A stretch of DNA of 64,000 nt from an uncultured Gammaproteobacteria bacterium (GTDB lineage: Bacteria; Patescibacteriota; Microgenomatia; UBA8517), in NCBI GenBank assembly GCA_964635715.1, contig CAZWNZ010000001.1, positions 10,358 through 74,357 of the forward strand. Reading direction: 5' to 3'. The translations under genes were made by a program, and so were the position numbers. This document shows positions 30,122 through 64,000 of this stretch, in pieces. Under the pieces are notes generated by a model, which saw nothing but the letters and a program-made list of their open reading frames with translations, did no database searches and was not told the DNA's origin. The number at the start of each line of letters is the position of its first letter. Position 1 is the first letter of the stretch.

Positions 30122-30811
30122 CTAGTCTTCGGGTGGAACCACCCTTGCCCTCACAATAAGTCTTTTCGGATATCTGGGGTCTCCCGGAGGTATGCAGGTT
30201 ACAAGAGTTATAAAAGAATCGCTGGAATCCTGATCCAGCACTTGCAAATCGGTCGGTGCAACCTCAAACATCTCTTCCACTTTGTAGGTGTATGATACGC
30301 CGTCATAATCGACGAACACAAAATCTCCGACCTTCATTGTCGGCAGCATTGTAAAAATAGAGATATAATTTTTCGGATTATTGAAAATCGGCAAAATTGA
30401 ATGACCGAATATAACAGCATTGCCGCGTTTTCCCGGAAGAGCTGTTCCCGGATATTGAATGAGGCTTTTGCTCAAATCTTCTCCGCCTATTGCCACTGTT
30501 GCCGATTCTATCTTGAGTTTTGGTATTGAGAGTGTGTAATAAGACACTTTTTCTGCGGTGAAATCCTCTACTGTTGCTCCGTTGGTAAACCAGCTGCTGG
30601 CCATGGTATCTTCTGTTCCTATGCCTGTCGATTCCGTCATAACTTTTTGTATCTGACCCTCCGAGTCGGCCAGCGGAGAAATTAGCTTGGTATAATTTTT
30701 CGAATATGTAGCATCATAGCTGACAATCGGATAAATCACCCCTATTAAAATGACTATTCCTGAAATACCTGAAATTAAAGCTGATATGCGCAATATTGTC
30801 TTTTGTTTCAT
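30122..30811 (-). CDS. sortase-family transpeptidase
   Basis: N-terminal TM; catalytic triad context IFGHS ... TLVTC ... RLIVRA. Confidence 0.7.
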   Translation of the reverse strand: MKQKTILRISALISGISGIVILIGVIYPIVSYDATYSKNYTKLISPLADSEGQIQKVMTESTGIGTEDTMASSWFTNGATVEDFTAEKVSYYTLSIPKLKIESATVAIGGEDLSKSLIQYPGTALPGKRGNAVIFGHSILPIFNNPKNYISIFTMLPTMKVGDFVFVDYDGVSYTYKVEEMFEVAPTDLQVLDQDSSDSFITLVTCIPPGDPRYPKRLIVRARVVPPED

Positions 30812-30856: not shown

Positions 30857-33070
30857 TTACTCGGGTTTCACATCTACGGTAATATTCTTGGAAATTCTTG
30901 GGATGGTTTTCAAAAATCCCGGGAACTTAATTTTTAAAACAATATCCGCATGGTCAAAACCCTGAATAGAATTTAAGTATGAGGTGGCAATAGTTGTTGT
31001 CTTGCCGGATATCGTACTTTTTATCTTTTCCGCATCAACCTCAGGTAGGAAGTTTCCACCCACCACAACATCATAAACGTAATTGCCGTCTTGTTCTTCC
31101 ACAAAAGTGAACCTGAAATCTATCTGATCTGAAGTTAATATATAACCCGACGGGGATTTGTCGCCCAAAATTCCCTTTGCATATTCTAGAATTTGCTCCC
31201 TTTCTACTACCAAACCGGTAGCGTTAATTGTCAAAGCAAGCTTCAAATTGCTCGCCTGATCTCCAACATCATAATCGAAAATCTCTTTGGCAACATCCAA
31301 TCCGGCCAGGTCATTAACAAAGAGCTCGTCTGCAGAAATTTTTGCCGACAATTCCGATTTTGCATTCTGGCTAAGTTCTGTTTTCAACCCCTCCTCAAGC
31401 TCCGTTTGATCATCTTTGCTAACCGCCGAAATTTGCTGGCTACTACCGCCACTAAAGTCTGCTGTAGATGTTGCAGCAACAAGAGATTTGGAATAATTTC
31501 CAACACTAAATACTTCGCCCTTGGCTAAATTGTAGGTCGATCCAATATCATAAGCTGTGACATTCACAGTTGCAGTACCTGGGGAACCCGGCAAAATTTG
31601 ACCGGATATAGAGGCTTCATTATTTGTCAAAAATTTGAAACCTGACGAAGAAGTTAAAACTGTTCCTGACGTGAGATTTATAGCAACGCTGTTCCCGTTG
31701 GCTATCTCCACCGAACCTGACGCTTTATCACCAATAAGTTTGGTTCCTGTGGTTGATTTTGTTTTCTCACCGGACACTTCGCTTGTTACGGTTTTTGCAG
31801 GAATGATGTTGTTTTCTTGATTAAATTGATCTTTCGTACTGAATGTAATCCGCGCGCTCTCTTCCGCTCTCTTGGATGTAACATAAATAGTCACTTTAGC
31901 AGTTTGTGCAAACCACCATAAGCCAGCCACAGCCAGTAGAGCTAATCCGAGAATGGATAAGACCACCATCGGGACTCTTTTTTTCCCGGTAGAATTAATA
32001 TTTGGCTTGGAAAACATCTTGGAGAAAGAGTGGAATAGCTGTTTAGATTTGGTGAAATAATCTATATGTCCTTTTTGCGGTTGTGTGATCGGCGCTTCTA
32101 CCTGCTGAAATGGAGCTTTGGGATAAACATCAGTTGGGGGCGATTGTACAGGAACAACATTTTGGACATCTTCATTTTTCATCGAAGAAACGTCTTCCTC
32201 CAAAGCAAATCCCAAACTTTCCGCAGTCACGGGCTTTGTCTCTTCCGGTTTTTCATTTATTTCCTCATATTGAGGCTCCTCAACTTCTTTATATTCAGAC
32301 TTTTCGCTGCTGACCACTCCTTTGACGTCTCCCATCTCTGCTCCACCCGCTAAAGCTGTTGCTAATACTTTTTTATCCACACTTAAGACCTCCACCTGAG
32401 GTGTGTGTAAAAAGCTGATTTTACCTTCGCCCCAATTAGCCTGAAGCAAAGTCTGTTTTGCCTCCTCAAGCTCGCCTTCTTTTCCGTCATAGACAATGAA
32501 CCTTGTTGGTAGGGGTGATATCCCCTCAAATCTTGAAAGCCCCTCAATCACGTCATCCACCAGAGACACACTTCTTGAAACTTCCGTTGTTCCTGCCAGT
32601 TCGCCAAGTTTAAATACCGAAATTTCTAAATTTTCACCACTGGTATTCAAAACAATCGCATTAAGAGGTGATGATTCCTCGGATTTATATAAGTGAGCAA
32701 TTGCCTCAGGTAAGACAACGAATCCAACAGGAGTCAGAGAAAGCTCTGTGCAAAGTTTTTTTATTTTAAGAAGATTCTCCGGAGAAATCACTCCATCTTT
32801 TACCCATGAAGTGGAAACCCCAAAAACCGTCTTTGATGGTTCCGGATAATCCTCGGGGAGTTTTTGTATTGCCGATGAAAGAGCTGCATCAGTCGCTTCA
32901 ACCAACTCCTCATCATTTTCCCACGGAATTCCCGCCCCTATCCCGACAACCTTTGCCTCACCCTCACCTATATACCAAATTCCGGATTGCACCAAACCTT
33001 TTTCTATTACAAGTGCCCAAAAAAGCTCAGGTGGACTTTCTTTACTTGTTATCAAATCTTTAAGGTTCAT
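30857..33070 (-). CDS. large membrane protein: N-terminal cytoplasmic actin-fold (PilM/FtsA-like) domain, Pro/Glu-rich linker, one TM, ~350-aa Ser/Thr-rich extracellular domain
   Basis: N-terminus ...ALVIEKGLVQSGIWYIGEGEAKVVGIG...AIVLNTSGENLEISVFKLGELAG resembles PilM/FtsA nucleotide-binding strands. TM VVLSILGLALLAVAGLWWF at about residue 370. Confidence 0.35.
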   Translation of the reverse strand: MNLKDLITSKESPPELFWALVIEKGLVQSGIWYIGEGEAKVVGIGAGIPWENDEELVEATDAALSSAIQKLPEDYPEPSKTVFGVSTSWVKDGVISPENLLKIKKLCTELSLTPVGFVVLPEAIAHLYKSEESSPLNAIVLNTSGENLEISVFKLGELAGTTEVSRSVSLVDDVIEGLSRFEGISPLPTRFIVYDGKEGELEEAKQTLLQANWGEGKISFLHTPQVEVLSVDKKVLATALAGGAEMGDVKGVVSSEKSEYKEVEEPQYEEINEKPEETKPVTAESLGFALEEDVSSMKNEDVQNVVPVQSPPTDVYPKAPFQQVEAPITQPQKGHIDYFTKSKQLFHSFSKMFSKPNINSTGKKRVPMVVLSILGLALLAVAGLWWFAQTAKVTIYVTSKRAEESARITFSTKDQFNQENNIIPAKTVTSEVSGEKTKSTTGTKLIGDKASGSVEIANGNSVAINLTSGTVLTSSSGFKFLTNNEASISGQILPGSPGTATVNVTAYDIGSTYNLAKGEVFSVGNYSKSLVAATSTADFSGGSSQQISAVSKDDQTELEEGLKTELSQNAKSELSAKISADELFVNDLAGLDVAKEIFDYDVGDQASNLKLALTINATGLVVEREQILEYAKGILGDKSPSGYILTSDQIDFRFTFVEEQDGNYVYDVVVGGNFLPEVDAEKIKSTISGKTTTIATSYLNSIQGFDHADIVLKIKFPGFLKTIPRISKNITVDVKPE

Positions 33071-35350: not shown

Positions 35351-35974
35351 CTAGTTTCTGACATTTATTTTGCGCGAAACTGTTGTTGTCTTGCCACTTC
35401 TGGATTGAGCAACAATCGTTATTTCTTCAGCACTGTCAGCAATCTCTATATTAACAGAAAATTTACCATCTTCATCTACCAATACCGGTTGATTGTCGAC
35501 GGTAATCTTAACATCTACATCCGTTGAACCAAAAACTAAAACCGAGTCACCAGCTATAATCTGTCCTTCTACAGGACTCACCACATTTATACTTGGAGGT
35601 GAAACAAATTTTTTATACTGGAAACCCAAATACCCAAGAATGAAAATAACAACAAGAGCAATTCCCAAAATAAACGTAATTCTGGGATTCCATGACTGTT
35701 TTGACGAGATATCAGGCTTAGGATTGATATTTGTTTTTGTTAAAGTGTAGTCCCGTTTAAGAATTGCTGTAGCCGTAGCTTCATCCACATCCAAGGCCGA
35801 AGCAATACTTTTAACGAATCCCAAAACAGTAGGAAAAGGCGGAAGCACCTGCCAATTTTCGTTTTCCAGATCTTTGATAAATGAAGCTTTAATTTTAGTA
35901 ATTTCCTCAAGCTTTTCGTAAGAGTACTTCTTTTCTTTTCGGGCACTAATAATTATTTGGCCAATTTTTCTCAT
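35351..35974 (-). CDS. rodZ: RodZ-like membrane protein with N-terminal helix-turn-helix
   Basis: IKASFIKDLENENWQVLPPFPTVLGFVKSIASALDVDE (RodZ HTH pattern), TM at ~residue 100, C-terminal beta domain. Confidence 0.6.
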   Translation of the reverse strand: MRKIGQIIISARKEKKYSYEKLEEITKIKASFIKDLENENWQVLPPFPTVLGFVKSIASALDVDEATATAILKRDYTLTKTNINPKPDISSKQSWNPRITFILGIALVVIFILGYLGFQYKKFVSPPSINVVSPVEGQIIAGDSVLVFGSTDVDVKITVDNQPVLVDEDGKFSVNIEIADSAEEITIVAQSRSGKTTTVSRKINVRN

Positions 35975-49222: not shown

Positions 49223-49672
49223 ATGACTAAAATTTCAAAATTGCCATTAAGATCTGATGTTTGGAATCGGATTTTTGATTTGTTCGTCAGTACCCTATCC
49301 AACCAAAGAGATAAAAAGAAATTATCAAATTTTATTAATGATTTTTTCTCGCCAACTGAAAGAATAATGTTTGCAAAAAGGTTGGCTATTGCGGTTCTGG
49401 TCGCAAAAGGCCAAGATTATCAAAGTATCCACGAAATTTTGAAAGTAAGTCCACCAACTATTGCAAAACTTAGTTTAAGAATCAAATATATGGGGGAGGG
49501 TTTAAACCCTGTTATTAGAGATATTTTTAAGAGTCAGGCGTTGCAAATTATATGGAAAGAAACTGAAGATCTGTTTGATTTGCCAACAAAAGGTAACTTA
49601 AAATCGCCCGAAAGATTTAAAAGAAAACTTCGAAGAGTGAAGCAAATTAATAAAATGAGATCGGAATTTTAA
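49223..49672 (+). CDS. TrpR/YerC-like helix-turn-helix DNA-binding protein (paralogue 3 of 3)
   Basis: FINDFFSPTERIMFAKRLAIAVLVAKGQDYQSIHEILKVSPPTIAKL. Confidence 0.6.
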   Translation: MTKISKLPLRSDVWNRIFDLFVSTLSNQRDKKKLSNFINDFFSPTERIMFAKRLAIAVLVAKGQDYQSIHEILKVSPPTIAKLSLRIKYMGEGLNPVIRDIFKSQALQIIWKETEDLFDLPTKGNLKSPERFKRKLRRVKQINKMRSEF

Positions 49673-54400: not shown

Positions 54401-56161
54401 TTAAGACCCGCTTGGGGTTTCTGTGGTTGGGGTAATTGGTTCTTCCTCTTTGGATGGAAGCGATGGAAAAACTCTCTTGGTAATAATTCTTTTGGCTAAA
54501 TTCAAAAAATACTTAGCTTCATCGACACGGAATAAAAGCGACAAAAGAGTGTAAATAATTAGTCCTACCAAAAAAGTAACAGTTGTAAGAATTATCACGT
54601 TACCTGTATAGCGAGTATCCAGTACAAATTTTTCGAAAGGAAAAGTGTTGGTAGCATCAATTCCGCTTAAAAAAGAAAGCCTTTTAACCCATACGGACTT
54701 ATCAAAAATTTTGAGCATAAAGAACATTGCAGTTCCAGAAACAACTGTTGCCATAAAAATCTTCAGGGTATGAATAACAAATCTCAAATCGACTATCTTT
54801 TCAATCTTTTTATTGATCAAAACAAGTAAAATTACAGATTCGACAAGTGTGCTGATAGCAAAAGATGCAGCCAGCGCCCAAACTCCCAAACCAAGACCTC
54901 TTATCAGAATAAAATCTGCGACAACTAAAATAGTTAATCCAACAAACGATACTTTTACCGGAGTTTTTGTATCGTTTAATGCAAAAAAAGAACGGGTAAG
55001 AATCGACATCAAAGTCTGAAAAACAACGGATATCGCAAAAACCGAAAGAATCGTTCCGGTCTGAACGGTAGAATTCCAATCAAAGATCTTTGTTCCATAA
55101 ATAAGTCTAACAACGGGAATTCTTAAAGCGATCAAGGCTGCCGATATTGGAAGTGTAAAAAACATTGCTTGATAAATTGCGGATAGGAGAATCTTTCTGA
55201 ACTCTTTTTTATTGTTGTCCACATCGGAAAGCATTGGTAGTACAGCCTTTGCGAGGGAAGTACCGAAGAGACTTACTGGTAAAAGTTGTAATGAATTGGC
55301 AAAAGTATAGTAGGTATAAGATGCCTGTGAAATTATTGATGAAAGAAAAAGTTCAGCACTTTTCCCCACCTGGTCAAATGCTAAATCAACTACTCTGGGA
55401 AAGGCTAATTGTCCGATTTTTTTGACGTTGTCATCAGGTTTAAAATTCCAAGTGAATCTAAACCCAAGTTTGCGCGAAAGAGGGTATTGAATAATAAAAT
55501 GTGCAAAAGCTCCTATAACTACTCCAACCGCAGGGGCAATCAATCCCAAGCGTGGGGTGAGAACAACAGTCCCAAAAATTATACCCAAATTATAAAAAAT
55601 CGGCGCCAGAGCGGGAATCAAAAAGCGCCTTAATGATTCCAAAACTCCGGTTAAAACATAACTAATTACAAAAAAACCCTGTGCAGCGAAAAGAATTCTG
55701 GCAAGAAAAGCTATTTGGTTCGTTTCGTAATCCCCATAACCAGGAGCAATTACTGAGTAAATCTGGGGGGCAAAAACTCCTATTATCAATACCGCAAAAG
55801 CAAAAATTGCAAGCCCTATTGAGACCACCTTACCAGCAAGTTGCCAAGCTTGCGCTTCACCATTTTTTAATGTCTTCGTGAAAATGGGTATAAAAGCTGA
55901 TGAAAAAGTCCCAAAAACCAACACTTGAAATACTGCATCCGGAAGTCTGAATGCAGCAAAGAAAAGTGATAACGATTCCGGAGTAAAATAGCTGGCCAAA
56001 ACTCTTTGTCTGACAAGTCCCAGGATCATAGAGATGGCAATCATTACCATGATAAGTGTCGCTGCAGAAAGAACTGTGTTTTGTTGGGAATTTATTATTT
56101 TTTTGCTCCTGGATATCAAGTTTTCCATAACTCTCTGTTGATATTCTAGCCTCTTTGTCAT
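54401..56161 (-). CDS. murJ: lipid II flippase MurJ (MviN)
   Basis: ~14 TM helices; MurJ-like N-terminus ...LGLVRQRVLASYFTPESLSLFFAAFRLPD... Confidence 0.85.
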   Translation of the reverse strand: MTKRLEYQQRVMENLISRSKKIINSQQNTVLSAATLIMVMIAISMILGLVRQRVLASYFTPESLSLFFAAFRLPDAVFQVLVFGTFSSAFIPIFTKTLKNGEAQAWQLAGKVVSIGLAIFAFAVLIIGVFAPQIYSVIAPGYGDYETNQIAFLARILFAAQGFFVISYVLTGVLESLRRFLIPALAPIFYNLGIIFGTVVLTPRLGLIAPAVGVVIGAFAHFIIQYPLSRKLGFRFTWNFKPDDNVKKIGQLAFPRVVDLAFDQVGKSAELFLSSIISQASYTYYTFANSLQLLPVSLFGTSLAKAVLPMLSDVDNNKKEFRKILLSAIYQAMFFTLPISAALIALRIPVVRLIYGTKIFDWNSTVQTGTILSVFAISVVFQTLMSILTRSFFALNDTKTPVKVSFVGLTILVVADFILIRGLGLGVWALAASFAISTLVESVILLVLINKKIEKIVDLRFVIHTLKIFMATVVSGTAMFFMLKIFDKSVWVKRLSFLSGIDATNTFPFEKFVLDTRYTGNVIILTTVTFLVGLIIYTLLSLLFRVDEAKYFLNLAKRIITKRVFPSLPSKEEEPITPTTETPSGS

Positions 56162-56220
56162 ATACTAACAACCACAAATGAATTTTAGATTTTAAATTTA
56201 AAATTCCGAGTTAACTAGCC

Positions 56221-56514
56221 ATGCCAGTAACAAAAACAGCAAAGAGAGCCCTCAGGGGTTCGAAAAATAAAGCAGAAGTAAATAAGCTTTTAATAAAAAG
56301 GCTTGAGATTGCTATCCGTATGGCAAAAAAGTCTAAATCTCCCAAAGAAGTTCTGACTGCAACTTCTCTAGCTGATCGTGCCGCAAAAAAAAGAATCATT
56401 CATAAAAATAAAGCGGCTAGAGTTAAATCCCAACTAGCAAAATTGATTACTGCAAACAAAGTTTCAAAGATTAAAAAAACCACTTCTAAAAAAGTTTCTT
56501 CTAATAAGAAATAA
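56221..56514 (+). CDS. rpsT: 30S ribosomal protein S20
   Basis: TKTAKRALRGSKNKAEVNKLLIKRLEIAIRMA...KRIIHKNKAARVKSQLAKLI matches S20 (...KGLIHKNKAARHK...). Confidence 0.85.
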   Translation: MPVTKTAKRALRGSKNKAEVNKLLIKRLEIAIRMAKKSKSPKEVLTATSLADRAAKKRIIHKNKAARVKSQLAKLITANKVSKIKKTTSKKVSSNKK

Positions 56515-56577: not shown

Positions 56578-57108
56578 ATGCCCAAAAATAAAGCAATCAA
56601 TTTACTGCCTTTAGAGGAGTTTAACGCTTCAACCACCGGCCGTGTTCTAAAATGGGCGACAGGAACTTTCCGTGTGATTGTAATTATCACTGAAATGGTT
56701 GTTATGGGAGCTTTTTTGTCACGGTTCTGGCTGGATGCCCAAAATTCAACTCTAAACAACGCAATAAAAGCAAAAAGTGCCCAAATTTCCGCACAAACTG
56801 ATTTAGAGCAGCGTTTCAGAAACACTCAATTAAAACTGAATGTATTTAAACAAATTGATCAAAGTAATAATTTATCTTCTTATGTTGACAACATTACCAG
56901 CAAGGTTCCTGAAAATATCACTTTATCAAAAATATCCATTGAGAAAGAGGCTATATCTATTACGGGTTCGTCTTTATCGGATTATGATATCGCGGTATTT
57001 ATAGCCAGTCTGCAAAATCCACCATTTAAAGAGGCTGTTTTAAGTCAGGTGGGTTCATCTGAAAACAATCCCGGAGAAACCAATTTTACAGTGAGCGCGA
57101 TTTATTAA
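56578..57108 (+). CDS. pilN: type IV pilus assembly protein PilN-like
   Basis: INLLP signature at residues 7-11, TM, coiled-coil, C-terminal ferredoxin-like periplasmic region. Confidence 0.65.
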   Translation: MPKNKAINLLPLEEFNASTTGRVLKWATGTFRVIVIITEMVVMGAFLSRFWLDAQNSTLNNAIKAKSAQISAQTDLEQRFRNTQLKLNVFKQIDQSNNLSSYVDNITSKVPENITLSKISIEKEAISITGSSLSDYDIAVFIASLQNPPFKEAVLSQVGSSENNPGETNFTVSAIY

Positions 57109-57112
57109 TACT

Positions 57113-57772
57113 ATGGCATCAGGTTGGAGATCATCATATTACCGATATAAACAACTGTTTCTAAATGTTTCTGCCACTTATAAAAAGAGGTCGGATCTTC
57201 GTGCGTTTTTGGAAATAGTTTTGTCGTTAATTGCAGTAATCATTTTCGTAGTTTTTGCATTAAAACCTACCGCCTTAACCATTATTAGTCTTGTCCAACA
57301 GATAAAAGAAGAGAAAAAGGTTCTAACCTCACTCAACCAAAAGGTCAGTGACTTGCAAAAAGCATCCACTCTTTTAACCCAAAATCAAATGTTTTTGGAT
57401 AACATTAATCTTGCCATCTCCACTACACCAAGTCCTGATATATTTGCAAAACAAATATTGGGAATGTCTGCCAAAAATAATGTTGAGCTGATGGCTTTAT
57501 CCATTAACGAAGTTGTTATAATTGGGAACACAAAAAAGATAGTTTCCAAAGAAACAGAACCATTGCCTGAGAATGCTAACGAAATTGGATACTCGATCAG
57601 TATAAAAGGCGGTTTTGCCAATATAAACACATTTTTAAAAGATATTGAAAATCTCAGAACAATATCGAAAATAGACAGCCTCACAATTAGCTCTTCCATA
57701 AGTGACTCTGGAAGGGTTATAGTGGCTGTAATTTCAGGTAGAATTCCTTATTTGGAACAAGTCAAAAAATGA
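57113..57772 (+). CDS. pilO: type IV pilus assembly protein PilO-like
   Basis: Short cytoplasmic N-terminus, TM (LEIVLSLIAVIIFVVFAL), coiled-coil, C-terminal domain; follows pilN with a 4-nt gap. Confidence 0.55.
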   Translation: MASGWRSSYYRYKQLFLNVSATYKKRSDLRAFLEIVLSLIAVIIFVVFALKPTALTIISLVQQIKEEKKVLTSLNQKVSDLQKASTLLTQNQMFLDNINLAISTTPSPDIFAKQILGMSAKNNVELMALSINEVVIIGNTKKIVSKETEPLPENANEIGYSISIKGGFANINTFLKDIENLRTISKIDSLTISSSISDSGRVIVAVISGRIPYLEQVKK

Positions 57773-58137
57773 AAAAAAATCGTCTCCCCAAACCAATAAC
57801 CATACTAATATTGACACTTTTAACTGCAGTACTTTGGGTAGGTTTAAATATATATAGAACTTTTACAATTAAGCCGGATGCTCCTGTTCCTGAAAGTGTA
57901 TCCAATCCTTTGAATCCGGTACTCAACACTGAAGTCATTCAGCAAATAGAATCCGCTATTTACATTCCCGATTCTGAAATTCCACAAATTGGTACAAACA
58001 TTCAAATAACAGCGACACCCCTGCCTGTGCTGACCGAGGAGGAAATGACCGAAGCTGAAACAGGATCCGAAACTGAATCAACCGAAAGCGGATCTTTTCA
58101 GGCAACTGAAGATGAAACAACAACCGAAGAAAAATGA
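57769..58137 (+). CDS. small signal-anchored protein with acidic Glu/Thr-rich tail
   Basis: TM ITILILTLLTAVLWVGL; C-terminus EEEMTEAETGSETESTESGSFQATEDETTTEEK. 4-nt overlaps with both neighbouring genes. Confidence 0.4.
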   Translation: MKKNRLPKPITILILTLLTAVLWVGLNIYRTFTIKPDAPVPESVSNPLNPVLNTEVIQQIESAIYIPDSEIPQIGTNIQITATPLPVLTEEEMTEAETGSETESTESGSFQATEDETTTEEK

Positions 58138-59507
58138 TAAAGAAAAAAAATATACCAACAATACTTGGAATACTGCTTCTTTTGGGTGGCGTATTTACCG
58201 GTGTGATTCTTCTTAAGAACAATCAACTGTTCAGAATAGGTGCAAGTTCCACAGCAGCTCCCAAGGATGTAAGAGTCAGTAGTGTTTCTGATTCCACAGC
58301 TACCATTACTTGGGTCACCGGAGAACCCACATCGGCTTTTATTTCTTATGGTACCGATGAAAATACCGGAACCGTTATTAATGAGACAGAAAATGACCAA
58401 AAATATACCACTCACAGTATCACTATTACAGGTCTTTCTGCCAGTTCCACCTATTACTTAAAAATAAACTCTAACGGCACAACATTTGACAACAATGGGG
58501 TTCCTTGGCAATTTATTACAGGTGAAAATCTACCTCTAAGCCAGAAGTCGATTCCGATATCTGGATCCGTTATCTCCGCGTCAGGAACATCCATGAAAAG
58601 GGCAATTGTTTACATAACTATAAACGGTTATGTGATTTCAACAATGACCTCAGAAAATGGAACTTTTGTTTTACAAATCGGATCCGCCAGAACTCCCGAT
58701 CTTTCCGCTTATGCAGATATTGATCTTGAGAAAACCCTTCTGGAAATTTCGGTTACGGCGGAGACCGGAGAAACTGCAATTGCAAAAATCTTTTCTCAAT
58801 CCGCAAACCCAATTCCTGCATTAATAATTGGCCAAGATCAAGATTTCAGAAATTTGGAACCTTTATCCAACGGTTTAAATCCAGATGCCAATCTTAGCCT
58901 TCCTGAAAGTGCGACGGCTGAGTCTAAACTTGATGTCAGTCAATCCGAAACTATTTCTACAACAACCCTAACCTTGGACAGTATTACTGAAGGAGAGGTA
59001 ATCACCAGCAATCAACCTCAACTTTTCGGGGATGGGCCAAAAGGAACCGAGATTACAATTACTATTCACTCCGACACGGAAATTTCAGGATCGGCAGTTG
59101 TTTCATCAAGTGGCCTGTGGAATTGGTCGCTTCCAACCGATCTTTCTCCCGGTGCTCACACAATTACTATTTCCTGGATCGACTCACTAGGCATTGCCAG
59201 AACTCTAACCAGAAATTTTATCGTCCAAGCCGGTGAATTGCCTGCATTTGAAGCATCACCATCAGGCACTCCTACGACGACGCCAAAACCAAGTCAAACT
59301 CCTTCCCCCACACCAATTCCAAGTGCGACAAAAACTCCCTTAGCTACCAAAAGCCCAACCCCAAAGCCGACTGCTATTCCAACCACAACTCCGGAATCTT
59401 TACCTGAATCTGGAATCTTGACTCCGACTCTTCTACTATCTATGATGGGGATAGGCGTAATAACCTTTGCTTTTTATATTTGGAAAAAATCAGAAGATGA
59501 GTCCTAA
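58134..59507 (+). CDS. cell-surface protein: signal anchor, fibronectin type III-like domain, Pro/Thr-rich stalk, C-terminal LPESG sorting signal
   Basis: FN3-like APKDVRVSSVSDSTATITWVTGEPTSAFISYG...YYLKINS. C-terminus TPESLPESGILTPTLLLSMMGIGVITFAFYIWKKSEDES (LPxxG + hydrophobic + charged tail). Confidence 0.65.
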   Translation: MIKKKNIPTILGILLLLGGVFTGVILLKNNQLFRIGASSTAAPKDVRVSSVSDSTATITWVTGEPTSAFISYGTDENTGTVINETENDQKYTTHSITITGLSASSTYYLKINSNGTTFDNNGVPWQFITGENLPLSQKSIPISGSVISASGTSMKRAIVYITINGYVISTMTSENGTFVLQIGSARTPDLSAYADIDLEKTLLEISVTAETGETAIAKIFSQSANPIPALIIGQDQDFRNLEPLSNGLNPDANLSLPESATAESKLDVSQSETISTTTLTLDSITEGEVITSNQPQLFGDGPKGTEITITIHSDTEISGSAVVSSSGLWNWSLPTDLSPGAHTITISWIDSLGIARTLTRNFIVQAGELPAFEASPSGTPTTTPKPSQTPSPTPIPSATKTPLATKSPTPKPTAIPTTTPESLPESGILTPTLLLSMMGIGVITFAFYIWKKSEDES

Positions 59508-59542
59508 ATTGAATCTAGAATTATAAATTACTAATAATATCC

Positions 59543-60820
59543 ATGCCCAACCAAGATCCAACAAACAACAATCCTCCCCAAGAGAATACCCCGGTAAATC
59601 CTGTAAGTTCGGTCTCTTTTTCACCTCAGGCAGATTTACCGCCATTACCGCCGGAATTCCAAAATCTGGAAGGCAGTCAAGTTAATCCACCAACCGCCAA
59701 CTCAACGTCGTCATCCGATCCTACAGGAGATTCTGGTTCTGCAGCGCCGCCGCCAGCTTTTGCAAATATTGCCCCTGCTCCAAAGAAAAAGTTTGGAACC
59801 AAAAAAATAATTGCCACGATTTTAGGAATAATCGGGCTTGTGGGAGCGGTCGGAGCAGGAACATATCTTGTTGGACAAAAACAACTATTTCAACAAAAAG
59901 CCGACACACTATATGAATGTTCAAATGCTTACTGTGTAAGGTGTACTTGCGGATGTACATCATCCAATGCAGATTGCAGTGGACCAACTAATTGTAACCC
60001 CGATTGTCCAACCGCCACTCCAGTTTCAACGGACAGGCCTAATACATGCGAAGAAAATGGTTTTACATGTAAAACACCTGGCGGTGATGGTCATTGTCCA
60101 ACAGGGTCATATGATCGATCTGGAACATGTGCTAATGGTGTGTGTTGTTATACTCCATCCGACCCAGAACCCACATCCAGAACAGGATGGGGAATCGGAG
60201 AAGCTTGCACTAATACATCAGGAACGGGAACTCAGTGTGTTCTTGCTATTTGCCCATATGGGTGTGAAGGTAGTTGTGATTCTAACGATCCGGGTGTTAC
60301 TTTGAAATATGGAAATTGTGAGACACTTGCAAGTGAAGTGCTGAGTACTTGTGGCCAAGTTGATTTAGTTAATTCTTCAGGTGTTTATTGTGATGTTGAT
60401 CCATCGGATGGTATAGATGCTCAAATAACATGTCCTCAACCCAGATGTGCTGTTGATGATACACCTACGAGTGAGCCTAAATCTTCACCAACCCCAACTC
60501 CCACCACCGCTGCACCCTACTGCGCTGCCGTAAAAGCTTACGATACAGAATGGGAAGTACTTTCCTCAACCGACTTGACATCTCTATCAGAAGGATCTGT
60601 TGTTAACTTCTGTGTATCGGGTCTTCCATTATCCAATTCTTTCGACAAAGCTCAATTTACTATCAACGGTGTTAAACAAACTGAGACCTCTGTAAACAGA
60701 CCTCAATCGGCAGAGACAACTTATTACAACGAGTTCTGTCAGTCTTATACAATACCAAGCGGAACAACAACGTTTACTGTCACGGGTCAGATTCACCACT
60801 CTACGCTCGGGTGGTTTTAA
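59543..60820 (+). CDS. membrane-anchored protein: Pro-rich cytoplasmic N-terminus, one TM, large Cys-rich extracellular domain
   Basis: TM IIATILGIIGLVGAVGAGTYLV; more than 40 Cys in CxxC/CC clusters (CSNAYCVRCTCGCTSSNADCSGPTNCNPDCPT...). Confidence 0.5.
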   Translation: MPNQDPTNNNPPQENTPVNPVSSVSFSPQADLPPLPPEFQNLEGSQVNPPTANSTSSSDPTGDSGSAAPPPAFANIAPAPKKKFGTKKIIATILGIIGLVGAVGAGTYLVGQKQLFQQKADTLYECSNAYCVRCTCGCTSSNADCSGPTNCNPDCPTATPVSTDRPNTCEENGFTCKTPGGDGHCPTGSYDRSGTCANGVCCYTPSDPEPTSRTGWGIGEACTNTSGTGTQCVLAICPYGCEGSCDSNDPGVTLKYGNCETLASEVLSTCGQVDLVNSSGVYCDVDPSDGIDAQITCPQPRCAVDDTPTSEPKSSPTPTPTTAAPYCAAVKAYDTEWEVLSSTDLTSLSEGSVVNFCVSGLPLSNSFDKAQFTINGVKQTETSVNRPQSAETTYYNEFCQSYTIPSGTTTFTVTGQIHHSTLGWF

Positions 60821-60826
60821 AAATAT

Positions 60827-61423
60827 ATGAAAAAACCTGTTAGCAAAATCGGAACAATTTTAATAATAATAGCCACAGTCATTCTGGCTGGAATTGCGAT
60901 TTTTACAGCCTACAGATTGTATCAACTTAGACAAACCTCTGTCGCACCTAATGTTCCCAGCAGCATGCCAAAGGCTGAAGAATCAACTGCAAGCCCTGCT
61001 CCCACTAGCAATTGTTCCCTATCGTTTACCATATCGACATCCACTCCTACCACTACAGCCACAGCTACAGCTACTGCAACAGCCACAGCAACTGCGACGG
61101 CTACAGCTACTGCAACAGCCACGCCAACTTCATCCGGTACTCCGAACTCTTGCGGTGGAACTTGTGGAAGTAATACTAATTGTGGATCAGGTCTTTACTG
61201 TTATAACGGTTACTGTCGTAATCCATCGTGTTCTAATGAAATAGATTGTGTCTGTCCGACAGGCACCTCTACGGCCACAGCAACTGCGACAGCAAAAAGT
61301 TCCACCCCAACTTCTACACCTGAAGAAGTCACTCTTCCCGAGTCAGGTACAGGCTGGACGACTTTCATGGGTATCGGAGTCGGAATGTTGGTTGTTCTAG
61401 GATCAATTCTTTTAGCTCTCTAA
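60827..61423 (+). CDS. cell-surface protein with (Thr-Ala)n repeat, small Cys-knot module and C-terminal LPESG sorting signal
   Basis: TTATATATATATATATATATATATPT; CGGTCGSNTNCGSGLYCYNGYCRNPSCSNEIDCVCP; C-terminus EEVTLPESGTGWTTFMGIGVGMLVVLGSILLAL. Confidence 0.65.
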   Translation: MKKPVSKIGTILIIIATVILAGIAIFTAYRLYQLRQTSVAPNVPSSMPKAEESTASPAPTSNCSLSFTISTSTPTTTATATATATATATATATATATATPTSSGTPNSCGGTCGSNTNCGSGLYCYNGYCRNPSCSNEIDCVCPTGTSTATATATAKSSTPTSTPEEVTLPESGTGWTTFMGIGVGMLVVLGSILLAL

Positions 61424-61430
61424 TTTCATT

Positions 61431-61718
61431 GTGAATAAAATTACAAACTTTCTGAAACCAGGCATCGAATTTGCCAAAACAAATTTAGATACCATTATCG
61501 TTGTTCTTATCTCAGTCGGAATTTTCTTTCTTGGATACTATGTTACTGTTTATTCACTAGGAAAGCTGAAACCAAAGATCGTTTCTTATTATCCTTTTGA
61601 TAAATTTTTCCCAAAATCTGGGCGTTGGTCCGTGATGTATTTTTTAATTACAGTTCTTCTTTTGGGAGCTCTGGTTTATATAATTATAAAGGGAGGCTTC
61701 TATCTAGCACCGGCTTAA
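61431..61718 (+). CDS. small two-TM membrane protein
   Basis: Two hydrophobic helices (IIVVLISVGIFFLGYYV; VMYFLITVLLLGALVYIII). Confidence 0.35.
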   Translation: MNKITNFLKPGIEFAKTNLDTIIVVLISVGIFFLGYYVTVYSLGKLKPKIVSYYPFDKFFPKSGRWSVMYFLITVLLLGALVYIIIKGGFYLAPA

Positions 61719-61720
61719 AA

Positions 61721-64000
61721 TTATCTCCAGCTTGCTACCCAGTAGTAACTTTTGTCTAACCAAAGTGGAACTTGGAGTCCTGCCCAGTGTGGATAAAAAT
61801 AAATAAATGACAAAATGCAAATAGGCACAACGAAATACATTGCCTTTGGAAATCGTCTTAGTAAATAACCTATTGCAATACTCATAAATGGTATCGAGGG
61901 AAGATAGTGATAGAAAAACATTATCCTGGGAGATGCTGCCCACGGAGCAAAAAATATTAAATAACTAAATACCACAAAACCAAGCCTTTTATTTTTTTCA
62001 AGATAGGAAAAAACCGCACACAAGCAAATTGAGGCAATCCCAATCCAAAAAACAAAGGGATTACCCATTGCATATATTCGGGAAACCACCCCTCCGATTT
62101 CACTACTTGTGTAAAGATAAATTGGTCGAATCAAAAACGGCCAGGTCCACCATGAAGATGTGTAAGGATGTGTGGCTTCTAAGCCTGTGTGATACCACCA
62201 TATTTGCTTCTGCATGCCCCACCATATAGTCAAATTGTGCCCTGTTGTAAACATCGGTAAGTAGGATAAAAGGTAAATGATAAAAGGTAAAAGTAAAAAC
62301 CAAAGAATTGAGGGATTAAACTTATTTTTTCTTTTAAGCCATAGAACAAAAATTATCGGAGCCGCCCAAAGAGCTGACCACTTGGAAGAAAGTGCCAAAC
62401 CATAAAAAATAGCCGAAAAAAGATCTTTTTGTTTCATGAACATATAGATCGACAGGAGAGAAAAGAAAAGAATGTAGCTATCATTCATACCTATTCTATT
62501 CATAACCAAGGGAAGTCCGTCCAGCGAAAAAACTCCGGCAGAAATAAGACCAACAGTCTCATCTTTAAATATTTTCTTTGCTATTAAATAGATCAAATAA
62601 ACCGACCCTACACCCAAAATGGCGCCCGGGATTCTCCAACCAAATGAATTTTGGCCAAAAATGCTCATTCCAAGAACCATTCCAAGTTTTGCCAATGGCG
62701 GGTGTGTCCACTCATAAGCAAAGCCCTCAGGAGGAGTATTCCACCACTCCCAAGCCTTGGCAGAATCTTCTCCCATCATTGTTACTGCGGTAAAAGCATG
62801 ATAGACCTCGTCAAAATACATTTCCGTAGGACTCCCCAAGTTAAACACACGGACGGCAAAGGCGAAGGCTAAAATCACATAAAGAATGTACTTGGATTTA
62901 ATTTTCGAAAGTTTGATTTCAGGTAAATTGGAAATGTCCTGTGTTCGATCTTCTTTTCTAGAACCTGAAAAAAAGCGATTAATATGTAACCGCATTTTCT
63001 TCCAACCGATCTTGTAATTTTTAAAGATAACAATAAACATATATACCAAAAGTCCCACACCAACTACTTCGATAAATTTGACCAGAAGCTCAGGATAAAC
63101 TTCTACAAAATCATTAACAATCCATTGATAGGAATAAATAAGATTTAACAAATAAATTACTGAATAGCCGGCATAAGGAATAATAAATAAAGGATTTTCG
63201 ATCGTCAAAATTGCCAGAGGCGCAAATACAGGCAAGAGATGTCTTTCATGCATCCTGGTAAAAAACATAAAACTTGCCGCAAACACAAAGGCTATTAGAC
63301 TATAATAATTGATCTTGGTTTTAAATTTTTTAATTATTAAAAGTGCCGTCATTGCCAAAACAAAAATATAACCTCCGAATTGAAAATAAATATTATCCGG
63401 CTTCCAAAAACCAAAAAGTCCCCAGAAATTAAAAGAGTTTACTGAAGTATAAGGATATTGCCCCGCAGAAAGATTTAGGCGGCTAAGTATAAATGGAATT
63501 AAGTCTCCCTTAGCAAAAGGCACAAATCCCAAAATAAACAGAGCCATCCCCACAAAAACATACTGAATCATTTTTGCAAAACTCCATTTATTCTTAATCA
63601 TCATTAACACAATAATAGGCAAAATAAACGCTGCCTGAGGCTTTATTAAAGTTCCAACAGAAAGAATAATTGCAGATAAAATAAAATTACTATTCAGGAA
63701 ATATACTACAGCGACGGATGCAAGTGCGGTTAAAGAGTCTACTTGCCCCCAAAGTGAAGAATTTATAAAAACCGCCGGATTAAAAATATAGATTAAAGAT
63801 CCGATAAATCCCCATTTTTGGTTTTTATTTTTTGCTAAAATTTTATATATCAAATAACCCGTCAAAAGGTCTGCAAAAATTGCCGGTAATTTATAAAGCA
63901 TAACTTGCGGAATAATTCCTAACAGATTCACTTTTTCTAACAACCGAAGAATATATAAATATCCGGGTAGGTAATCGCACCAGGAACTGTAGAAATTTTT
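61721..64000 (-). CDS. very large polytopic membrane glycosyltransferase: N-terminal GT-C-like module fused to a C-terminal PMT/GT39-like module; 5' end beyond window
   Basis: C-terminal half carries PMT-family motifs MYFDEVYHAFTA ... EWTHPPLAKL. More than 20 TM helices. Reading frame stays open to position 64000. Confidence 0.55.
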   Translation of the reverse strand, partial: KNFYSSWCDYLPGYLYILRLLEKVNLLGIIPQVMLYKLPAIFADLLTGYLIYKILAKNKNQKWGFIGSLIYIFNPAVFINSSLWGQVDSLTALASVAVVYFLNSNFILSAIILSVGTLIKPQAAFILPIIVLMMIKNKWSFAKMIQYVFVGMALFILGFVPFAKGDLIPFILSRLNLSAGQYPYTSVNSFNFWGLFGFWKPDNIYFQFGGYIFVLAMTALLIIKKFKTKINYYSLIAFVFAASFMFFTRMHERHLLPVFAPLAILTIENPLFIIPYAGYSVIYLLNLIYSYQWIVNDFVEVYPELLVKFIEVVGVGLLVYMFIVIFKNYKIGWKKMRLHINRFFSGSRKEDRTQDISNLPEIKLSKIKSKYILYVILAFAFAVRVFNLGSPTEMYFDEVYHAFTAVTMMGEDSAKAWEWWNTPPEGFAYEWTHPPLAKLGMVLGMSIFGQNSFGWRIPGAILGVGSVYLIYLIAKKIFKDETVGLISAGVFSLDGLPLVMNRIGMNDSYILFFSLLSIYMFMKQKDLFSAIFYGLALSSKWSALWAAPIIFVLWLKRKNKFNPSILWFLLLPFIIYLLSYLPMFTTGHNLTIWWGMQKQIWWYHTGLEATHPYTSSWWTWPFLIRPIYLYTSSEIGGVVSRIYAMGNPFVFWIGIASICLCAVFSYLEKNKRLGFVVFSYLIFFAPWAASPRIMFFYHYLPSIPFMSIAIGYLLRRFPKAMYFVVPICILSFIYFYPHWAGLQVPLWLDKSYYWVASWR

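What the first reader, a model, noticed from the sequence alone, without database searches (positions are those of the whole stretch)
56578..61718. pilN-pilO operon that continues into genes for LPESG-anchored and Cys-rich surface proteins: a candidate novel surface-structure system
Eight plus-strand genes with 4-nt overlaps or short gaps. They are PilN-like (INLLP), PilO-like, a small acidic signal-anchored protein, an FN3-domain protein ending in LPESG + hydrophobic helix + KKSEDES, a Cys-rich signal-anchored protein, a (Thr-Ala)n/Cys-knot protein ending in LPESG + hydrophobic helix, and a small two-TM protein. Neither LPESG protein has a prepilin (class III) leader, so they are not type IV pilins. 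They have classic Gram-positive cell-wall sorting-signal architecture with Ser replacing the usual Thr. The only sortase in the window is 26 kb away, next to a PilM-like fusion. Co-transcription of inner-membrane T4P alignment proteins with sortase substrates is not a described arrangement.
Basis: partly seen in the sequence, partly recalled or inferred. Interest (0 to 1): 0.8.

Follow-up and report, generated by a model that had tools for sequence, protein, structure and literature searches.

The report
PilN-PilO operon with sortase-signal surface proteins
In a group of tiny uncultured bacteria (Woesebacteria), two membrane proteins of the type IV pilus machine are always encoded in one tight gene cluster with five surface proteins, two of which carry a cell-wall-anchoring signal; this pairing has not been described and may show how these cells fix or pass a pilus machine through their wall.

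Summary
Positions 56578-61718 carry seven tightly packed plus-strand genes (eight with rpsT upstream).

- **PilN:** above Pfam's cut-off. Its INLLP PilM-binding motif is invariant in more than 50 distinct orthologues.
- **PilO:** below the cut-off as a single sequence, but its family profile finds solved PilO structures.
- **Downstream genes:** a small anchored protein, a three-domain Ig/FN3 stalk protein, a Cys-rich type II membrane protein, a Thr-Ala/8-Cys protein and a two-TM protein.

LPESG is only a variant of LPXTG. Orthologues carry [LVIM]Px[TS]G (76 Thr, 41 Ser) or LPx[SA]G, always followed by a hydrophobic helix.

The order MurJ / S20 / PilN / PilO / small / FN3 / Cys-rich / TA / (2TM) / PMT is kept in about 90 fetched loci. 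All sources that give a name call them Woesebacteria, Microgenomates or Patescibacteria, apart from two likely mis-binned records. The whole region is collinear, so adjacency alone is weak evidence.

New here: FN3 and the Cys-rich protein share an N-terminal anchor, FN3 and TA share a C-terminal sorting domain, and the membrane anchors are the most conserved parts of all six proteins.

Best reading, inferred: PilN/PilO plus wall-anchored, probably O-glycosylated partners form the envelope part of the pilus machine. I found no paper describing this. I call it a new variant of known kinds, with moderate interest.

The parts
56221..56514 (+). rpsT (ribosomal protein S20). It is the first of eight consecutive + strand genes and may or may not share the transcript.
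   Evidence: Pfam S20p 39.2 bits and TIGR00029 38.1 bits. It sits in the same position in relatives. A promoter-like site lies at 56138-56166.
56578..57108 (+). PilN: N-terminal INLLP peptide inferred to be cytoplasmic, one TM helix (about residues 29-47), extracellular PilN domain.
   Evidence: Pfam PilN 35.7 bits against a cut-off of 22.8. The family profile hits PilN of 3jc8 at E 1.3e-6. N8 L9 L10 P11 are invariant. The TM region is the most conserved part.
57113..57772 (+). PilO-like protein: TM helix (about residues 32-50), coiled coil, C-terminal PilO/GspM-type domain.
   Evidence: Pfam PilO 17.8 bits, below the cut-off of 22. GspM E 0.0034. The family profile hits PilO chains 3jc8 at 5e-5, 5uvr at 0.012 and 2rjz at 0.028.
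57769..58137 (+). Small N-terminally anchored protein: conserved TM helix, a conserved segment of about 45 residues, and a variable tail (acidic here, Pro/Thr-rich in relatives).
   Evidence: Alignment A4. 387 representative clusters (50% identity) match at E<=0.001, and the 150 best listed are 63-136 aa long with the match at or near the N-terminus. Three distant members that I looked up all follow PilO. No Pfam or NCBIfam hit.
58134..59507 (+). FN3/Ig stalk protein: N-terminal anchor, three beta-sandwich domains, disordered Pro/Thr linker, LPESG (59400-59414), hydrophobic helix, KKSEDES tail.
   Evidence: Pfam Pur_ac_phosph_N, Big_13 and fn3. AlphaFold2 model with pLDDT 71. Foldseek finds tandem-Ig adhesin stalks. 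TIGR01167 scores 15.1 against a cut-off of 15.9. Of 120 homologues, 117 have [LVIM]Px[TS]G followed by a helix.
59543..60820 (+). Cys-rich type II membrane protein: N-terminal tail of about 90 residues (inferred cytoplasmic) with a DLPPLPPEF motif, a TM anchor homologous to that of FN3, a hypervariable Cys-rich middle, and a conserved C-terminal domain of about 100 residues.
   Evidence: hhalign of the FN3 anchor against the Cys anchor gives 97% probability, E 1e-10. tblastn gives 50% identity over 34 residues.
60827..61423 (+). Thr-Ala repeat / 8-Cys-module protein: conserved N-terminal anchor, LPESG (61334-61348), hydrophobic helix that ends the protein.
   Evidence: Orthologues end LPx[SA]G-T-x-WPT followed by a helix ending LLLAL. 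Its C-terminal domain is homologous to that of FN3 (hhalign 94.5%, E 8e-8). Cys counts of 1, 9 and 17 indicate 0, 1 or 2 copies of an 8-Cys module. The (ACAGCC)n repeat lies at 61047-61126.
61431..61718 (+). Small protein with two TM segments.
   Evidence: Hydropathy shows TM segments at about residues 22-40 and 68-86. It is present in about half of the related loci. No family hit.
61721..63943 (-). PMT-family protein O-mannosyltransferase, convergent with the cluster. It is the candidate glycosylase of the Pro/Thr/Ala-rich linkers.
   Evidence: Pfam PMT, PMT_2 and PMT_4TMC. A PMT gene is adjacent in all loci. In L090 PMT-family genes lie on the same strand directly downstream, as does a PMT_2 gene in L089; in L088 an opposite-strand AbiEii gene lies between.
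54401..56161 (-). MurJ lipid II flippase, divergent from rpsT and the cluster (context).
   Evidence: Pfam MurJ 239 bits. Conserved neighbour in relatives.
30122..30811 (-). The only sortase in the window, and the presumed enzyme for the two LPESG signals.
   Evidence: Pfam Sortase 88.6 bits. TIGR01076 57 bits against a cut-off of 39, with no class model reaching its cut-off. The sequence has GHS, TLVTC and a C-terminal Arg. No paralogue in the window.
30857..33070 (-). 737-aa membrane protein next to the sortase: cytoplasmic actin-like (ASKHA) domain, disordered linker, TM helix, extracellular baseplate-J-like domain.
   Evidence: AlphaFold2 model with pLDDT 78.5. In Foldseek, PilM 5eox is the top hit (E 5e-8), but PPX/GppA, FtsA and EutJ score similarly, and phage baseplate proteins match the C-terminal half. 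Pfam Baseplate_J 23.9 bits. Adjacency to the sortase is conserved.

Best explanation
This is a lineage-conserved cell-envelope operon of Woesebacteria, a group within the CPR (Candidate Phyla Radiation, also called Patescibacteria).

Its first two genes encode genuine PilN and PilO, the membrane 'alignment' proteins of the type IV pilus machine. PilN's invariant INLLP peptide binds a PilM that is encoded elsewhere.

The next genes encode single-pass surface proteins exported by Sec. They are held in the membrane by unusually conserved anchors, and for FN3 and the Cys-rich protein these anchors are homologous. Their Pro/Thr/Ala-rich linkers are probably O-glycosylated by the adjacent PMT enzyme.

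The FN3 stalk protein and the Thr-Ala/Cys protein carry a shared LPx[TSA]G sorting domain. The single housekeeping sortase cleaves it and links the proteins to peptidoglycan.

Together they form the wall-proximal part of the pilus apparatus in a cell with no outer membrane. They would tie the PilN/PilO ring to the wall or line the passage through it, occupying the gene positions that PilP and PilQ hold after pilN-pilO in diderm bacteria.

Shown: the gene identities, the motifs, the conservation and the synteny. Inferred: co-transcription, sortase cleavage, glycosylation, and any physical link between PilN/PilO and the surface proteins.
For: - PilN passes Pfam's cut-off, and both family profiles find solved PilN and PilO chains.
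- INLLP is invariant in more than 50 distinct orthologues.
- Gene spacing is 4-nt overlaps or gaps of 4-35 nt, and no terminator-like site lies between the genes (the only one found lies inside the last gene).
- The gene order is kept in about 90 loci, down to about 40% FN3 identity and 31-32% identity of the small protein. This includes loci where the flanks are interrupted by inserted genes (L088) or where FN3 is shortened or absent (L088, L089, L093).
- The sorting motif [LVIM]Px[TS]G or LPx[SA]G plus a helix is conserved. The FN3 and TA C-terminal domains are homologous.
- The membrane anchors are the best conserved parts of PilN, PilO, small, FN3, Cys-rich and TA. This is the opposite of ordinary cleaved signals and fits a membrane complex.
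- The FN3 and Cys-rich N-terminal anchors are homologous: 97% against at most 29% in 28 control comparisons with these N-terminal anchors.
- PMT genes are always adjacent.
- Sortase is reported as near-ubiquitous in Microgenomates (PMC6744442).
- A complete Microgenomates genome lists a pilus locus with PilM but no PilN or PilO (PMC7143001). This fits pilN/pilO being encoded elsewhere, as here.
Against: - No pilB, pilC, pilT, pilD, pilM or pilin gene lies in the 64-kb window.
- The entire region (HrcA to PMT) is collinear in all relatives. Conserved adjacency may therefore reflect general synteny within one lineage rather than selection for linkage.
- I could not reach lineages outside Woesebacteria.
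- The FN3 sorting signal scores just below the TIGR01167 cut-off. The TA protein has no basic tail.
- The sequence after the motif is strongly conserved, which is unusual for a segment that is cut off and discarded.
- No RNA, protein or structural data exist, and no complex could be modelled with these tools.
Confidence: 0.4

Rival explanations
1. Co-located but functionally independent. PilN/PilO serve the pilus machine. The downstream genes are ordinary sortase-anchored, glycosylated surface proteins (adhesins or wall/S-layer-like components for host contact). They share a transcript or neighbourhood with pilN/pilO in a compact, highly syntenic genome but do not associate with them physically.
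For: - The whole HrcA-MurJ-S20 ... PMT region is collinear in all relatives, so adjacency is not specific.
- The FN3 model is a generic tandem-Ig adhesin stalk.
- The middle regions of the Cys-rich and TA proteins are hypervariable in length and Cys content, as expected of exposed, fast-evolving surface proteins.
- The neighbours MurJ, PMT and LytR-CpsA-Psr are general envelope genes.
Against: - Stop/start overlaps between pilO, small and FN3 suggest translational coupling.
- The small protein always follows PilO, even at 31-32% identity.
- The membrane anchors of all partners are the most conserved segments.
- The cluster is kept where the flanks are interrupted by inserted genes.
Confidence: 0.3
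2. A non-pilus assembly platform. This PilN/PilO pair has been recruited, perhaps with the 737-aa actin-fold membrane protein and the sortase, as a membrane scaffold. The scaffold would gather surface proteins and hand them to the sortase at a defined site, making a distinct surface-structure system.
For: - pilN/pilO are separated from any other pilus gene in the 64 kb.
- The sortase is always next to a membrane protein with a cytoplasmic actin-like domain whose best structural hit is PilM.
- The downstream proteins share N- and C-terminal targeting modules, like clients of one pathway.
Against: - The invariant INLLP peptide is the canonical PilM-binding motif and argues for a normal PilM partner.
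- The 737-aa protein has no PilM sequence signal. Its fold matches PPX/GppA and FtsA equally well, and by eye it lacks the nucleotide-binding motifs.
- The sortase block lies 26 kb away in a housekeeping alaS-ruvX-mltG context.
- No second PilN/PilO set was demonstrated.
Confidence: 0.15
3. The C-terminal LPx[TSA]G-plus-helix segment is not cleaved by sortase. It would be a permanent second membrane anchor, or the signal for another processing enzyme, leaving FN3 and TA tethered to the membrane at both ends.
For: - The helix after the motif is highly conserved in sequence (LTPTLLLSIMG..; WPT..G.G.G..VI.GSLLLAL).
- TA lacks the basic tail that retains classical substrates.
- FN3 falls just under the TIGR01167 cut-off.
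- The N-terminal anchors also look uncleaved.
Against: - Pro and Gly of the motif are invariant. Position 4 varies only among Thr, Ser and Ala, the pattern expected at a sortase scissile site.
- A disordered Pro/Thr linker precedes the motif, as in wall-spanning regions of sortase substrates.
- A sortase is conserved in these genomes (PMC6744442).
- No exosortase-, archaeosortase- or rhombosortase-type sorting-signal model matched either protein in NCBIfam at E<=1.
Confidence: 0.15

Closest known systems
Type IVa pilus alignment subcomplex, pilMNOPQ operon (Pseudomonas aeruginosa, Myxococcus xanthus; PDB 3jc8)
   Same: PilN with an INLLP N-terminus, one TM helix and a ferredoxin-like domain. 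PilO with a TM helix, coiled coil and PilO domain. pilN-pilO are adjacent and followed by genes for envelope partners. Profile matches to the 3jc8 PilN and PilO chains.
   Different: No pilM upstream. No PilP lipoprotein and no PilQ secretin, since the cell has no outer membrane. The genes after pilO encode membrane-anchored Ig/FN3, Cys-rich and Thr-Ala proteins with sortase-type signals.
Type IV pilus loci of monoderm bacteria and of CPR Saccharibacteria (Clostridium, Streptococcus sanguinis, TM7x)
   Same: These organisms have PilM/PilN/PilO without a secretin, in a single-membrane envelope (PMC11623550, PMC11580942, PMC6744442).
   Different: There, pilM-pilN-pilO sit inside the pilB/pilC/pilD/pilin locus and no LPXTG protein is co-encoded. 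Here pilN-pilO are detached from all other pilus genes and fused into an operon with surface proteins.
Housekeeping sortase with LPXTG cell-wall sorting signals (Staphylococcus aureus SrtA type; TIGR01167)
   Same: Motif, then hydrophobic helix, then C-terminus, preceded by a Pro/Thr-rich wall-spanning linker. A sortase with His, Cys and Arg is present.
   Different: Position 4 is Thr, Ser or Ala and position 1 is Leu, Val, Ile or Met. The basic tail is weak (FN3) or absent (TA). The post-motif helix is sequence-conserved, with an extended xx[TW]PT signature. The sortase fits no described class model.
YSIRK-G/S signal peptides of Gram-positive LPXTG proteins (from my own knowledge)
   Same: A conserved sequence motif inside the N-terminal export signal, shared by several sortase substrates and thought to direct them to a particular secretion site.
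   Different: The motif here ([PA]TILG ... Q.Q.F..KA) is unrelated in sequence. In the Cys-rich protein it lies behind a 90-residue N-terminal tail (inferred cytoplasmic), so it is an anchor rather than a cleaved signal peptide. No function has been tested.
Actinobacterial surface glycoproteins anchored by sortase (Actinomyces oris GspA with LCP; Pmt O-mannosylation; from my own knowledge, with the GspA paper cited in PMC11623550)
   Same: A sortase substrate with a Ser/Thr/Pro-rich region, neighbouring PMT-family and LytR-CpsA-Psr genes.
   Different: No PilN/PilO link is known there. Glycosylation here is only inferred from gene neighbourhood.
Pam donor-strand pili of CPR bacteria (bioRxiv 10.64898/2026.03.03.709456)
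   Same: A CPR-specific surface filament system built from Ig-like proteins. PamR has two FnIII domains and a C-terminal TM helix, and homologues are reported in Microgenomatia.
   Different: The pam operon has PapD-like chaperones and sits beside ATP synthase, CorB and MFS genes. PilN, PilO and PilM do not occur in the paper's text, and sortase is named only once, as background on other pilus types. Homology of FN3 to Pam proteins could not be tested.

Membership tests
PilN (Pfam PF05137) | Score above the Pfam gathering cut-off | tested here: met
   35.7 bits against 22.8, residues 103-174.
PilN (Pfam PF05137) | N-terminal INLLP-type PilM-binding peptide followed by a single TM helix | tested here: met
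   AINLLP at residues 6-11. N8 L9 L10 P11 are invariant in 33 aligned and more than 50 distinct orthologues. TM helix at about residues 29-47.
PilN (Pfam PF05137) | Binds PilM and works in a type IV pilus machine | not testable with these tools
   No pilM or other pilus gene in the window.
PilO (Pfam PF04350) / GspM | Score above the curated cut-off | tested here: not met
   PilO 17.8 bits against 22. GspM 17.1 against 60.
PilO (Pfam PF04350) / GspM | Profile-level similarity to solved PilO, a TM/coiled-coil/C-terminal-domain architecture, and a position directly after pilN | tested here: met
   Profile A3 hits 3jc8 PilO at E 5e-5, 5uvr at 0.012 and 2rjz at 0.028. TM helix at about residues 32-50. 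The gene starts 4 nt after pilN ends.
LPXTG cell-wall sorting signal (TIGR01167) | Model score above the cut-off | tested here: not met
   FN3 protein 15.1 bits against 15.9. The TA protein is not listed at E<=1.
LPXTG cell-wall sorting signal (TIGR01167) | LPXTG-like pentapeptide conserved in orthologues | tested here: met
   117 of 120 FN3 homologues have [LVIM]Px[TS]G (76 Thr, 41 Ser). TA orthologues have LPx[SA]G.
LPXTG cell-wall sorting signal (TIGR01167) | Hydrophobic helix followed by a positively charged tail | tested here: inconclusive
   The helix is present in both. FN3 ends KKSEDES (WK.SE in relatives). TA ends in the helix with no basic residue in any orthologue.
LPXTG cell-wall sorting signal (TIGR01167) | Cleavage by sortase and linkage to peptidoglycan | not testable with these tools
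   Requires biochemistry.
Sortase (Pfam PF04203) | Family score and catalytic His/Cys/Arg | tested here: met
   88.6 bits against 26.6. GHS, TLVTC and a C-terminal Arg are visible in the sequence. No class A-F model reaches its cut-off.
Type IV pilin (class III signal) | Short basic leader ending in Gly, then F/M-T-L-I-E with Glu5 | tested here: not met
   No G[FMLIVAST]T[LIV][LIVM]E in the first 80 residues of any cluster protein. The residue before the conserved Thr is Pro, Ala, Gly or Ile, and position +5 is Gly or Ile.
PilM / GspL cytoplasmic domain (for the 737-aa neighbour of the sortase) | Sequence or specific structural match to PilM | tested here: inconclusive
   No Pfam, NCBIfam or PDB sequence hit. 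In Foldseek, PilM 5eox is first (E 5e-8), but PPX/GppA, FtsA, EutJ and sugar kinases fall within one order of magnitude.
Pam donor-strand pilus system | PamA/B-type pilins plus PapD-like membrane chaperones in one operon | not tested
   No Pam sequences were available to compare. No chaperone-like gene is seen in the cluster, and the neighbourhood differs.

The most novel reading that the evidence does not exclude
The downstream proteins share a common N-terminal membrane anchor and, for two of them, a common C-terminal sorting domain. They could be clients or subunits of a hybrid pathway. In it, a PilM/PilN/PilO-type platform would organise or extract non-pilin, membrane-anchored subunits, and a sortase would then fix them covalently to the wall. 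That would be a previously unknown kind of surface structure or trans-wall conduit, specific to Woesebacteria-like CPR bacteria, joining type IV pilus and sortase logic.
Probability: 0.1. Interest if true: 0.85.

Novelty: new variant of a known kind. Interest (0 to 1): 0.55.

Why it matters
How a type IV pilus machine is held in, and passes through, the wall of a bacterium with a single membrane is unresolved. In CPR bacteria the pili are thought to be central to life on a host cell. This conserved operon names concrete candidates for the missing wall-side parts of that machine: PilN/PilO together with wall-anchored, probably glycosylated proteins. It also gives the near-universal Microgenomates sortase its first conserved candidate substrates. 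It defines an extended sorting signal (LPx[TSA]Gxx[TW]PT plus a helix) and a shared N-terminal anchor that can be searched for genome-wide. If the link is only co-location, the result still adds a conserved set of surface glycoprotein candidates for host attachment.

Tried and rejected
- **Canonical pilins:** rejected. There is no class III leader and no Glu5.
- **Exosortase (VPDSG/PEP-CTERM), archaeosortase or rhombosortase signals:** considered because LPESG resembles VPDSG. No such NCBIfam model hit at E<=1, whereas the LPXTG model nearly passes. A sortase is present.
- **PilO-like protein as a divisome DivIC/FtsB protein:** the Pfam DivIC hit (18.7 bits) covers only the TM helix and coiled coil. 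The profile matches the PilO C-terminal domain of three solved PilO chains.
- **Sortase-polymerised Gram-positive pilus:** there is a single sortase, in a housekeeping context, and it fits no class model, class C included. I did not look for pilin or E-box motifs in the substrates.
- **Pam pili:** different operon content and neighbourhood. Homology was not testable.
- **Exact look-up of the window's FN3 protein:** found no record.
- **The listing of cluster members on distant small-protein hits:** gave no organism names.
- **FN3-versus-small anchor similarity (81%):** not better than one control (82%), so I do not rely on it.
- **Promoter/terminator scan:** uninformative.
- **Foldseek of the FN3 model:** gave only generic tandem-Ig stalks.

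Full report
**What is there**

The window is a housekeeping stretch of a Patescibacteria (CPR) chromosome. It carries ribosomal proteins, rpoB/C, EF-Tu/G, dnaK/J, grpE, hrcA, nusA, infB, pnp, ftsK, alaS and similar genes. No tRNA genes were found.

Between 56578 and 61718 there are seven + strand ORFs. The ribosomal protein S20 gene directly upstream makes eight + strand genes in a row. Spacing is tight: a 4-nt gap, two 4-nt overlaps (pilO/small and small/FN3), then gaps of 35, 6 and 7 nt. No terminator-like site lies between the genes; the only one found is inside the last gene. The cluster is flanked by a divergent MurJ gene and a convergent PMT-family glycosyltransferase gene.

**PilN and PilO**

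- Gene 1 passes the Pfam PilN cut-off (35.7 against 22.8 bits). It starts MPKNKAINLLP.
- In more than 50 distinct orthologues the NLLP core is invariant. This is the peptide known from PilM:PilN structures to bind PilM (my own knowledge; compare PDB 5eou, 'PilM:PilN1-12', listed).
- A 33-sequence profile of gene 1 hits the Myxococcus PilN chain of 3jc8 at E 1.3e-6.
- Gene 2 fails Pfam PilO as a single sequence (17.8 against 22 bits). Its 31-sequence profile hits three solved PilO chains: 3jc8 at 5e-5, 5uvr at 0.012 and 2rjz at 0.028.
- The DivIC hit on gene 2 covers only the TM helix and coiled coil.

I accept both calls.

**The downstream proteins**

- **Small protein (122 aa).** It has a conserved TM helix (P7, T16, T19 and W23 invariant), a conserved segment of about 45 residues and a variable tail. 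Against 1.84 billion representatives it defines a family of 387 clusters. The 150 best listed are 63-136 aa long, with the match at or near the N-terminus.
- **457-aa FN3 protein.** It models as an N-terminal helix, three beta-sandwich domains, a disordered Pro/Thr linker and a C-terminal helix (pLDDT 71). Foldseek finds only tandem-Ig adhesin stalks such as SiiE and the ice-binding adhesin.
- **425-aa Cys-rich protein.** It has an N-terminal tail of about 90 residues, inferred to be cytoplasmic, with a conserved DLPPLPPEF motif. A TM anchor follows, then a hypervariable Cys-rich middle (7-51 Cys among orthologues) and a conserved C-terminal domain.
- **198-aa TA protein.** It has a conserved N-terminal anchor, a (Thr-Ala)n stretch encoded by an (ACAGCC)n repeat, and an 8-Cys module present in 0, 1 or 2 copies among orthologues (Cys counts 1, 9 or 17).
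- **Last gene.** It encodes a two-TM protein.

**The LPESG signals**

- Among 120 homologues of the FN3 protein, 117 have [LVIM]Px[TS]G followed by a helix. Position 4 is Thr in 76 and Ser in 41.
- TA orthologues have LPx[SA]G.

There are differences from the textbook signal. FN3 scores 15.1 against the TIGR01167 cut-off of 15.9. The TA family has no basic tail at all. The sequence after the motif is strongly conserved (LTPTLLLSIMG...WK.SE, and T.WPT..G.G.G..VI.GSLLLAL). The two C-terminal domains are homologous to each other (hhalign 94.5%, E 8e-8) and share an extended LPx[TSA]Gxx[TW]PT signature.

The window holds one sortase. It has the catalytic residues but fits no described sortase class model. 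Méheust et al. report that sortase is near-ubiquitous in Microgenomates (PMC6744442).

**Conservation**

The FN3 protein has hundreds of full-length homologues at 50-77% identity. Source names for these and for the PilN and 737-aa families are Woesebacteria, Microgenomates or Patescibacteria. Two records with other names are probably mis-binned.

In five loci fetched earlier and 80 metagenome loci, every locus long enough shows HrcA- MurJ- S20+ PilN+ PilO+ small+ FN3+ Cys+ TA+ (2TM+) PMT-. More distant Woesebacteria keep PilN-PilO-small followed by some combination of the other genes:

- a shortened FN3 gene, or none
- the Cys-rich protein
- a TA-type protein ending LPDAG plus a helix
- in one locus (L091), extra paralogues

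PMT-family genes sometimes follow on the same strand.

The whole region, unrelated flanks included, is collinear. Part of the conservation is therefore plain lineage synteny.

**New observations**

1. The N-terminal anchors of the FN3 and Cys-rich proteins are homologous (hhalign 97%, E 1e-10; tblastn 50% identity over 34 residues). Cys-rich against TA gives 91%. The best of 28 control comparisons with these N-terminal anchors gives 29%. The FN3-versus-small value of 81% is not above noise.
2. In all six single-pass proteins the membrane anchors are the most conserved parts. For PilN, residues 1-60 are 62-87% identical to the window residue against 21-49% in the ectodomain. For the Cys-rich protein the anchor is 55-68% against 8-24% in the middle. 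Ordinary cleaved signal peptides behave the opposite way, so this pattern fits helices that pack against one another in a membrane complex.
3. A PMT-family gene is always adjacent. LytR-CpsA-Psr is within 10 kb in several loci. This suggests that the Pro/Thr/Ala-rich linkers are glycosylated.

**The 'PilM-like fusion'**

The 737-aa protein next to the sortase has no PilM sequence signal. Its model (pLDDT 78.5) shows a cytoplasmic actin-like domain of about 250 residues, a disordered linker, a TM helix and an extracellular baseplate-J-like domain. PilM is the first Foldseek hit (E 5e-8), but PPX/GppA, FtsA and EutJ are equally good. By eye, the usual phosphate-binding motifs are degenerate. The gene order ftsK, rodZ-like, alaS, 737-aa protein, sortase, ruvX, mltG is conserved, which is a housekeeping wall context.

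**Mechanism**

Shown: genuine PilN and PilO, sortase-type signals, operon-like packing, and conservation across a lineage.

Inferred: PilN binds a PilM encoded at the pilus locus. A complete Microgenomates genome lists PilM but no PilN or PilO at its pilus locus (PMC7143001). The downstream proteins are exported, stay membrane-anchored and are glycosylated. FN3 and TA are transferred to peptidoglycan by the single sortase. Together they would form the wall-side part of the pilus apparatus. In the gene order they take the place of PilP and PilQ, which these cells lack (PMC6744442 reports no PilQ in CPR).

I put this at 0.4. The rivals are:

- co-location of independent surface glycoproteins (0.3)
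- a non-pilus scaffold system (0.15)
- uncleaved C-terminal anchors (0.15; this rival cuts across the other three readings and is not exclusive of them)

**Novelty**

Four literature searches found nothing that links PilN/PilO with sortase substrates. The recent CPR Pam-pilus preprint describes a different operon in a different neighbourhood. The Clostridium work links pilus proteins to secretion of a matrix protein, but not by co-encoding with LPXTG proteins.

All the parts are known kinds and the combination is new, so I rate this a new variant of a known kind. Interest is 0.55. It is conserved and testable, and it bears on an open question. It remains purely genomic, it comes from an uncultured lineage, and general synteny is a live alternative.

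Noticed in passing
window 30857-33070 (-) and 30122-30811 (-); L086, L087: A conserved 737-aa membrane protein always sits immediately upstream of the sortase, inside an alaS-ruvX-mltG block. It has a cytoplasmic degenerate actin-like domain, a TM helix and an extracellular phage-baseplate-J-like domain. NCBI names relatives 'baseplate J/gp47 family protein'. Its function is unknown.
   Followed up: partly
window 58134-58250 and 59780-59925; L090 11433-11564; L091 10991-13651: The FN3 and Cys-rich proteins share a homologous N-terminal anchor (K-rich, [PA]TILG, GG..AG, Q.Q.F..KA). Relatives carry extra paralogues with this anchor, and one locus has a 43-aa ORF that is the anchor alone. I could not tell whether this is specific to the cluster or a general CPR export signal.
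   Followed up: partly
window 59543-59810: The Cys-rich protein has an N-terminal tail of about 90 residues (inferred cytoplasmic) with conserved 'PQ(A/S)DLPPLPPEFQN' and 'GSAAPP' motifs. The first loosely recalls PilN's 'INLLPxEEF' peptide. A possible docking motif, untested.
   Followed up: no
window 61047-61126: An imperfect (ACAGCC)n hexanucleotide repeat encodes (Thr-Ala)n. TA-family orthologues vary from 120 to 325 aa and carry 0, 1 or 2 copies of an 8-Cys module that also resembles part of the Cys-rich protein (tblastn 42% over 45 residues, E 0.05).
   Followed up: partly
window 61721-63943 (-); L088-L090: A PMT-family protein O-mannosyltransferase is always next to the cluster. It is convergent here. 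Two PMT-family genes in L090 and a PMT_2 gene in L089 lie on the same strand directly downstream; in L088 two lie on the same strand after an inserted opposite-strand AbiEii gene. LytR-CpsA-Psr is within 10 kb in L001 and L089.
   Followed up: partly
window 1551-1976, 18324-18767, 49223-49672 (all +): Three paralogous small Trp-repressor-family (PF01371) genes are scattered through the window. Each is on the + strand among mostly - strand housekeeping genes.
   Followed up: no
window 35351-35974 (-): A RodZ-like protein (HTH_25 plus one TM helix) carries a C-terminal Ig-like/Glucodextran_B domain. It is conserved between ftsK and alaS in relatives.
   Followed up: no
window 1-64000: GC skew is negative in every 2-kb bin but one (+0.009 at 12001-14000), falling as low as -0.30, including the + strand cluster. 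This indicates strong strand compositional asymmetry. A published Microgenomates genome was noted for the same kind of disparity (PMC7143001, title).
   Followed up: no
window 45153-46130 (-), 11675-12664 (-), 29235-29612 (-): Three ORFs of 325, 329 and 125 aa have no Pfam hit. NCBIfam, run on the 325-aa and 125-aa ORFs only, also gave no meaningful hit.
   Followed up: no
L005 (CAZRGC010000003.1); P0169: One related contig is deposited as 'uncultured Gammaproteobacteria' and one homologue as 'Vicinamibacterales'. Gene content and synteny are Woesebacteria-like, so these are probably mis-binned.
   Followed up: no
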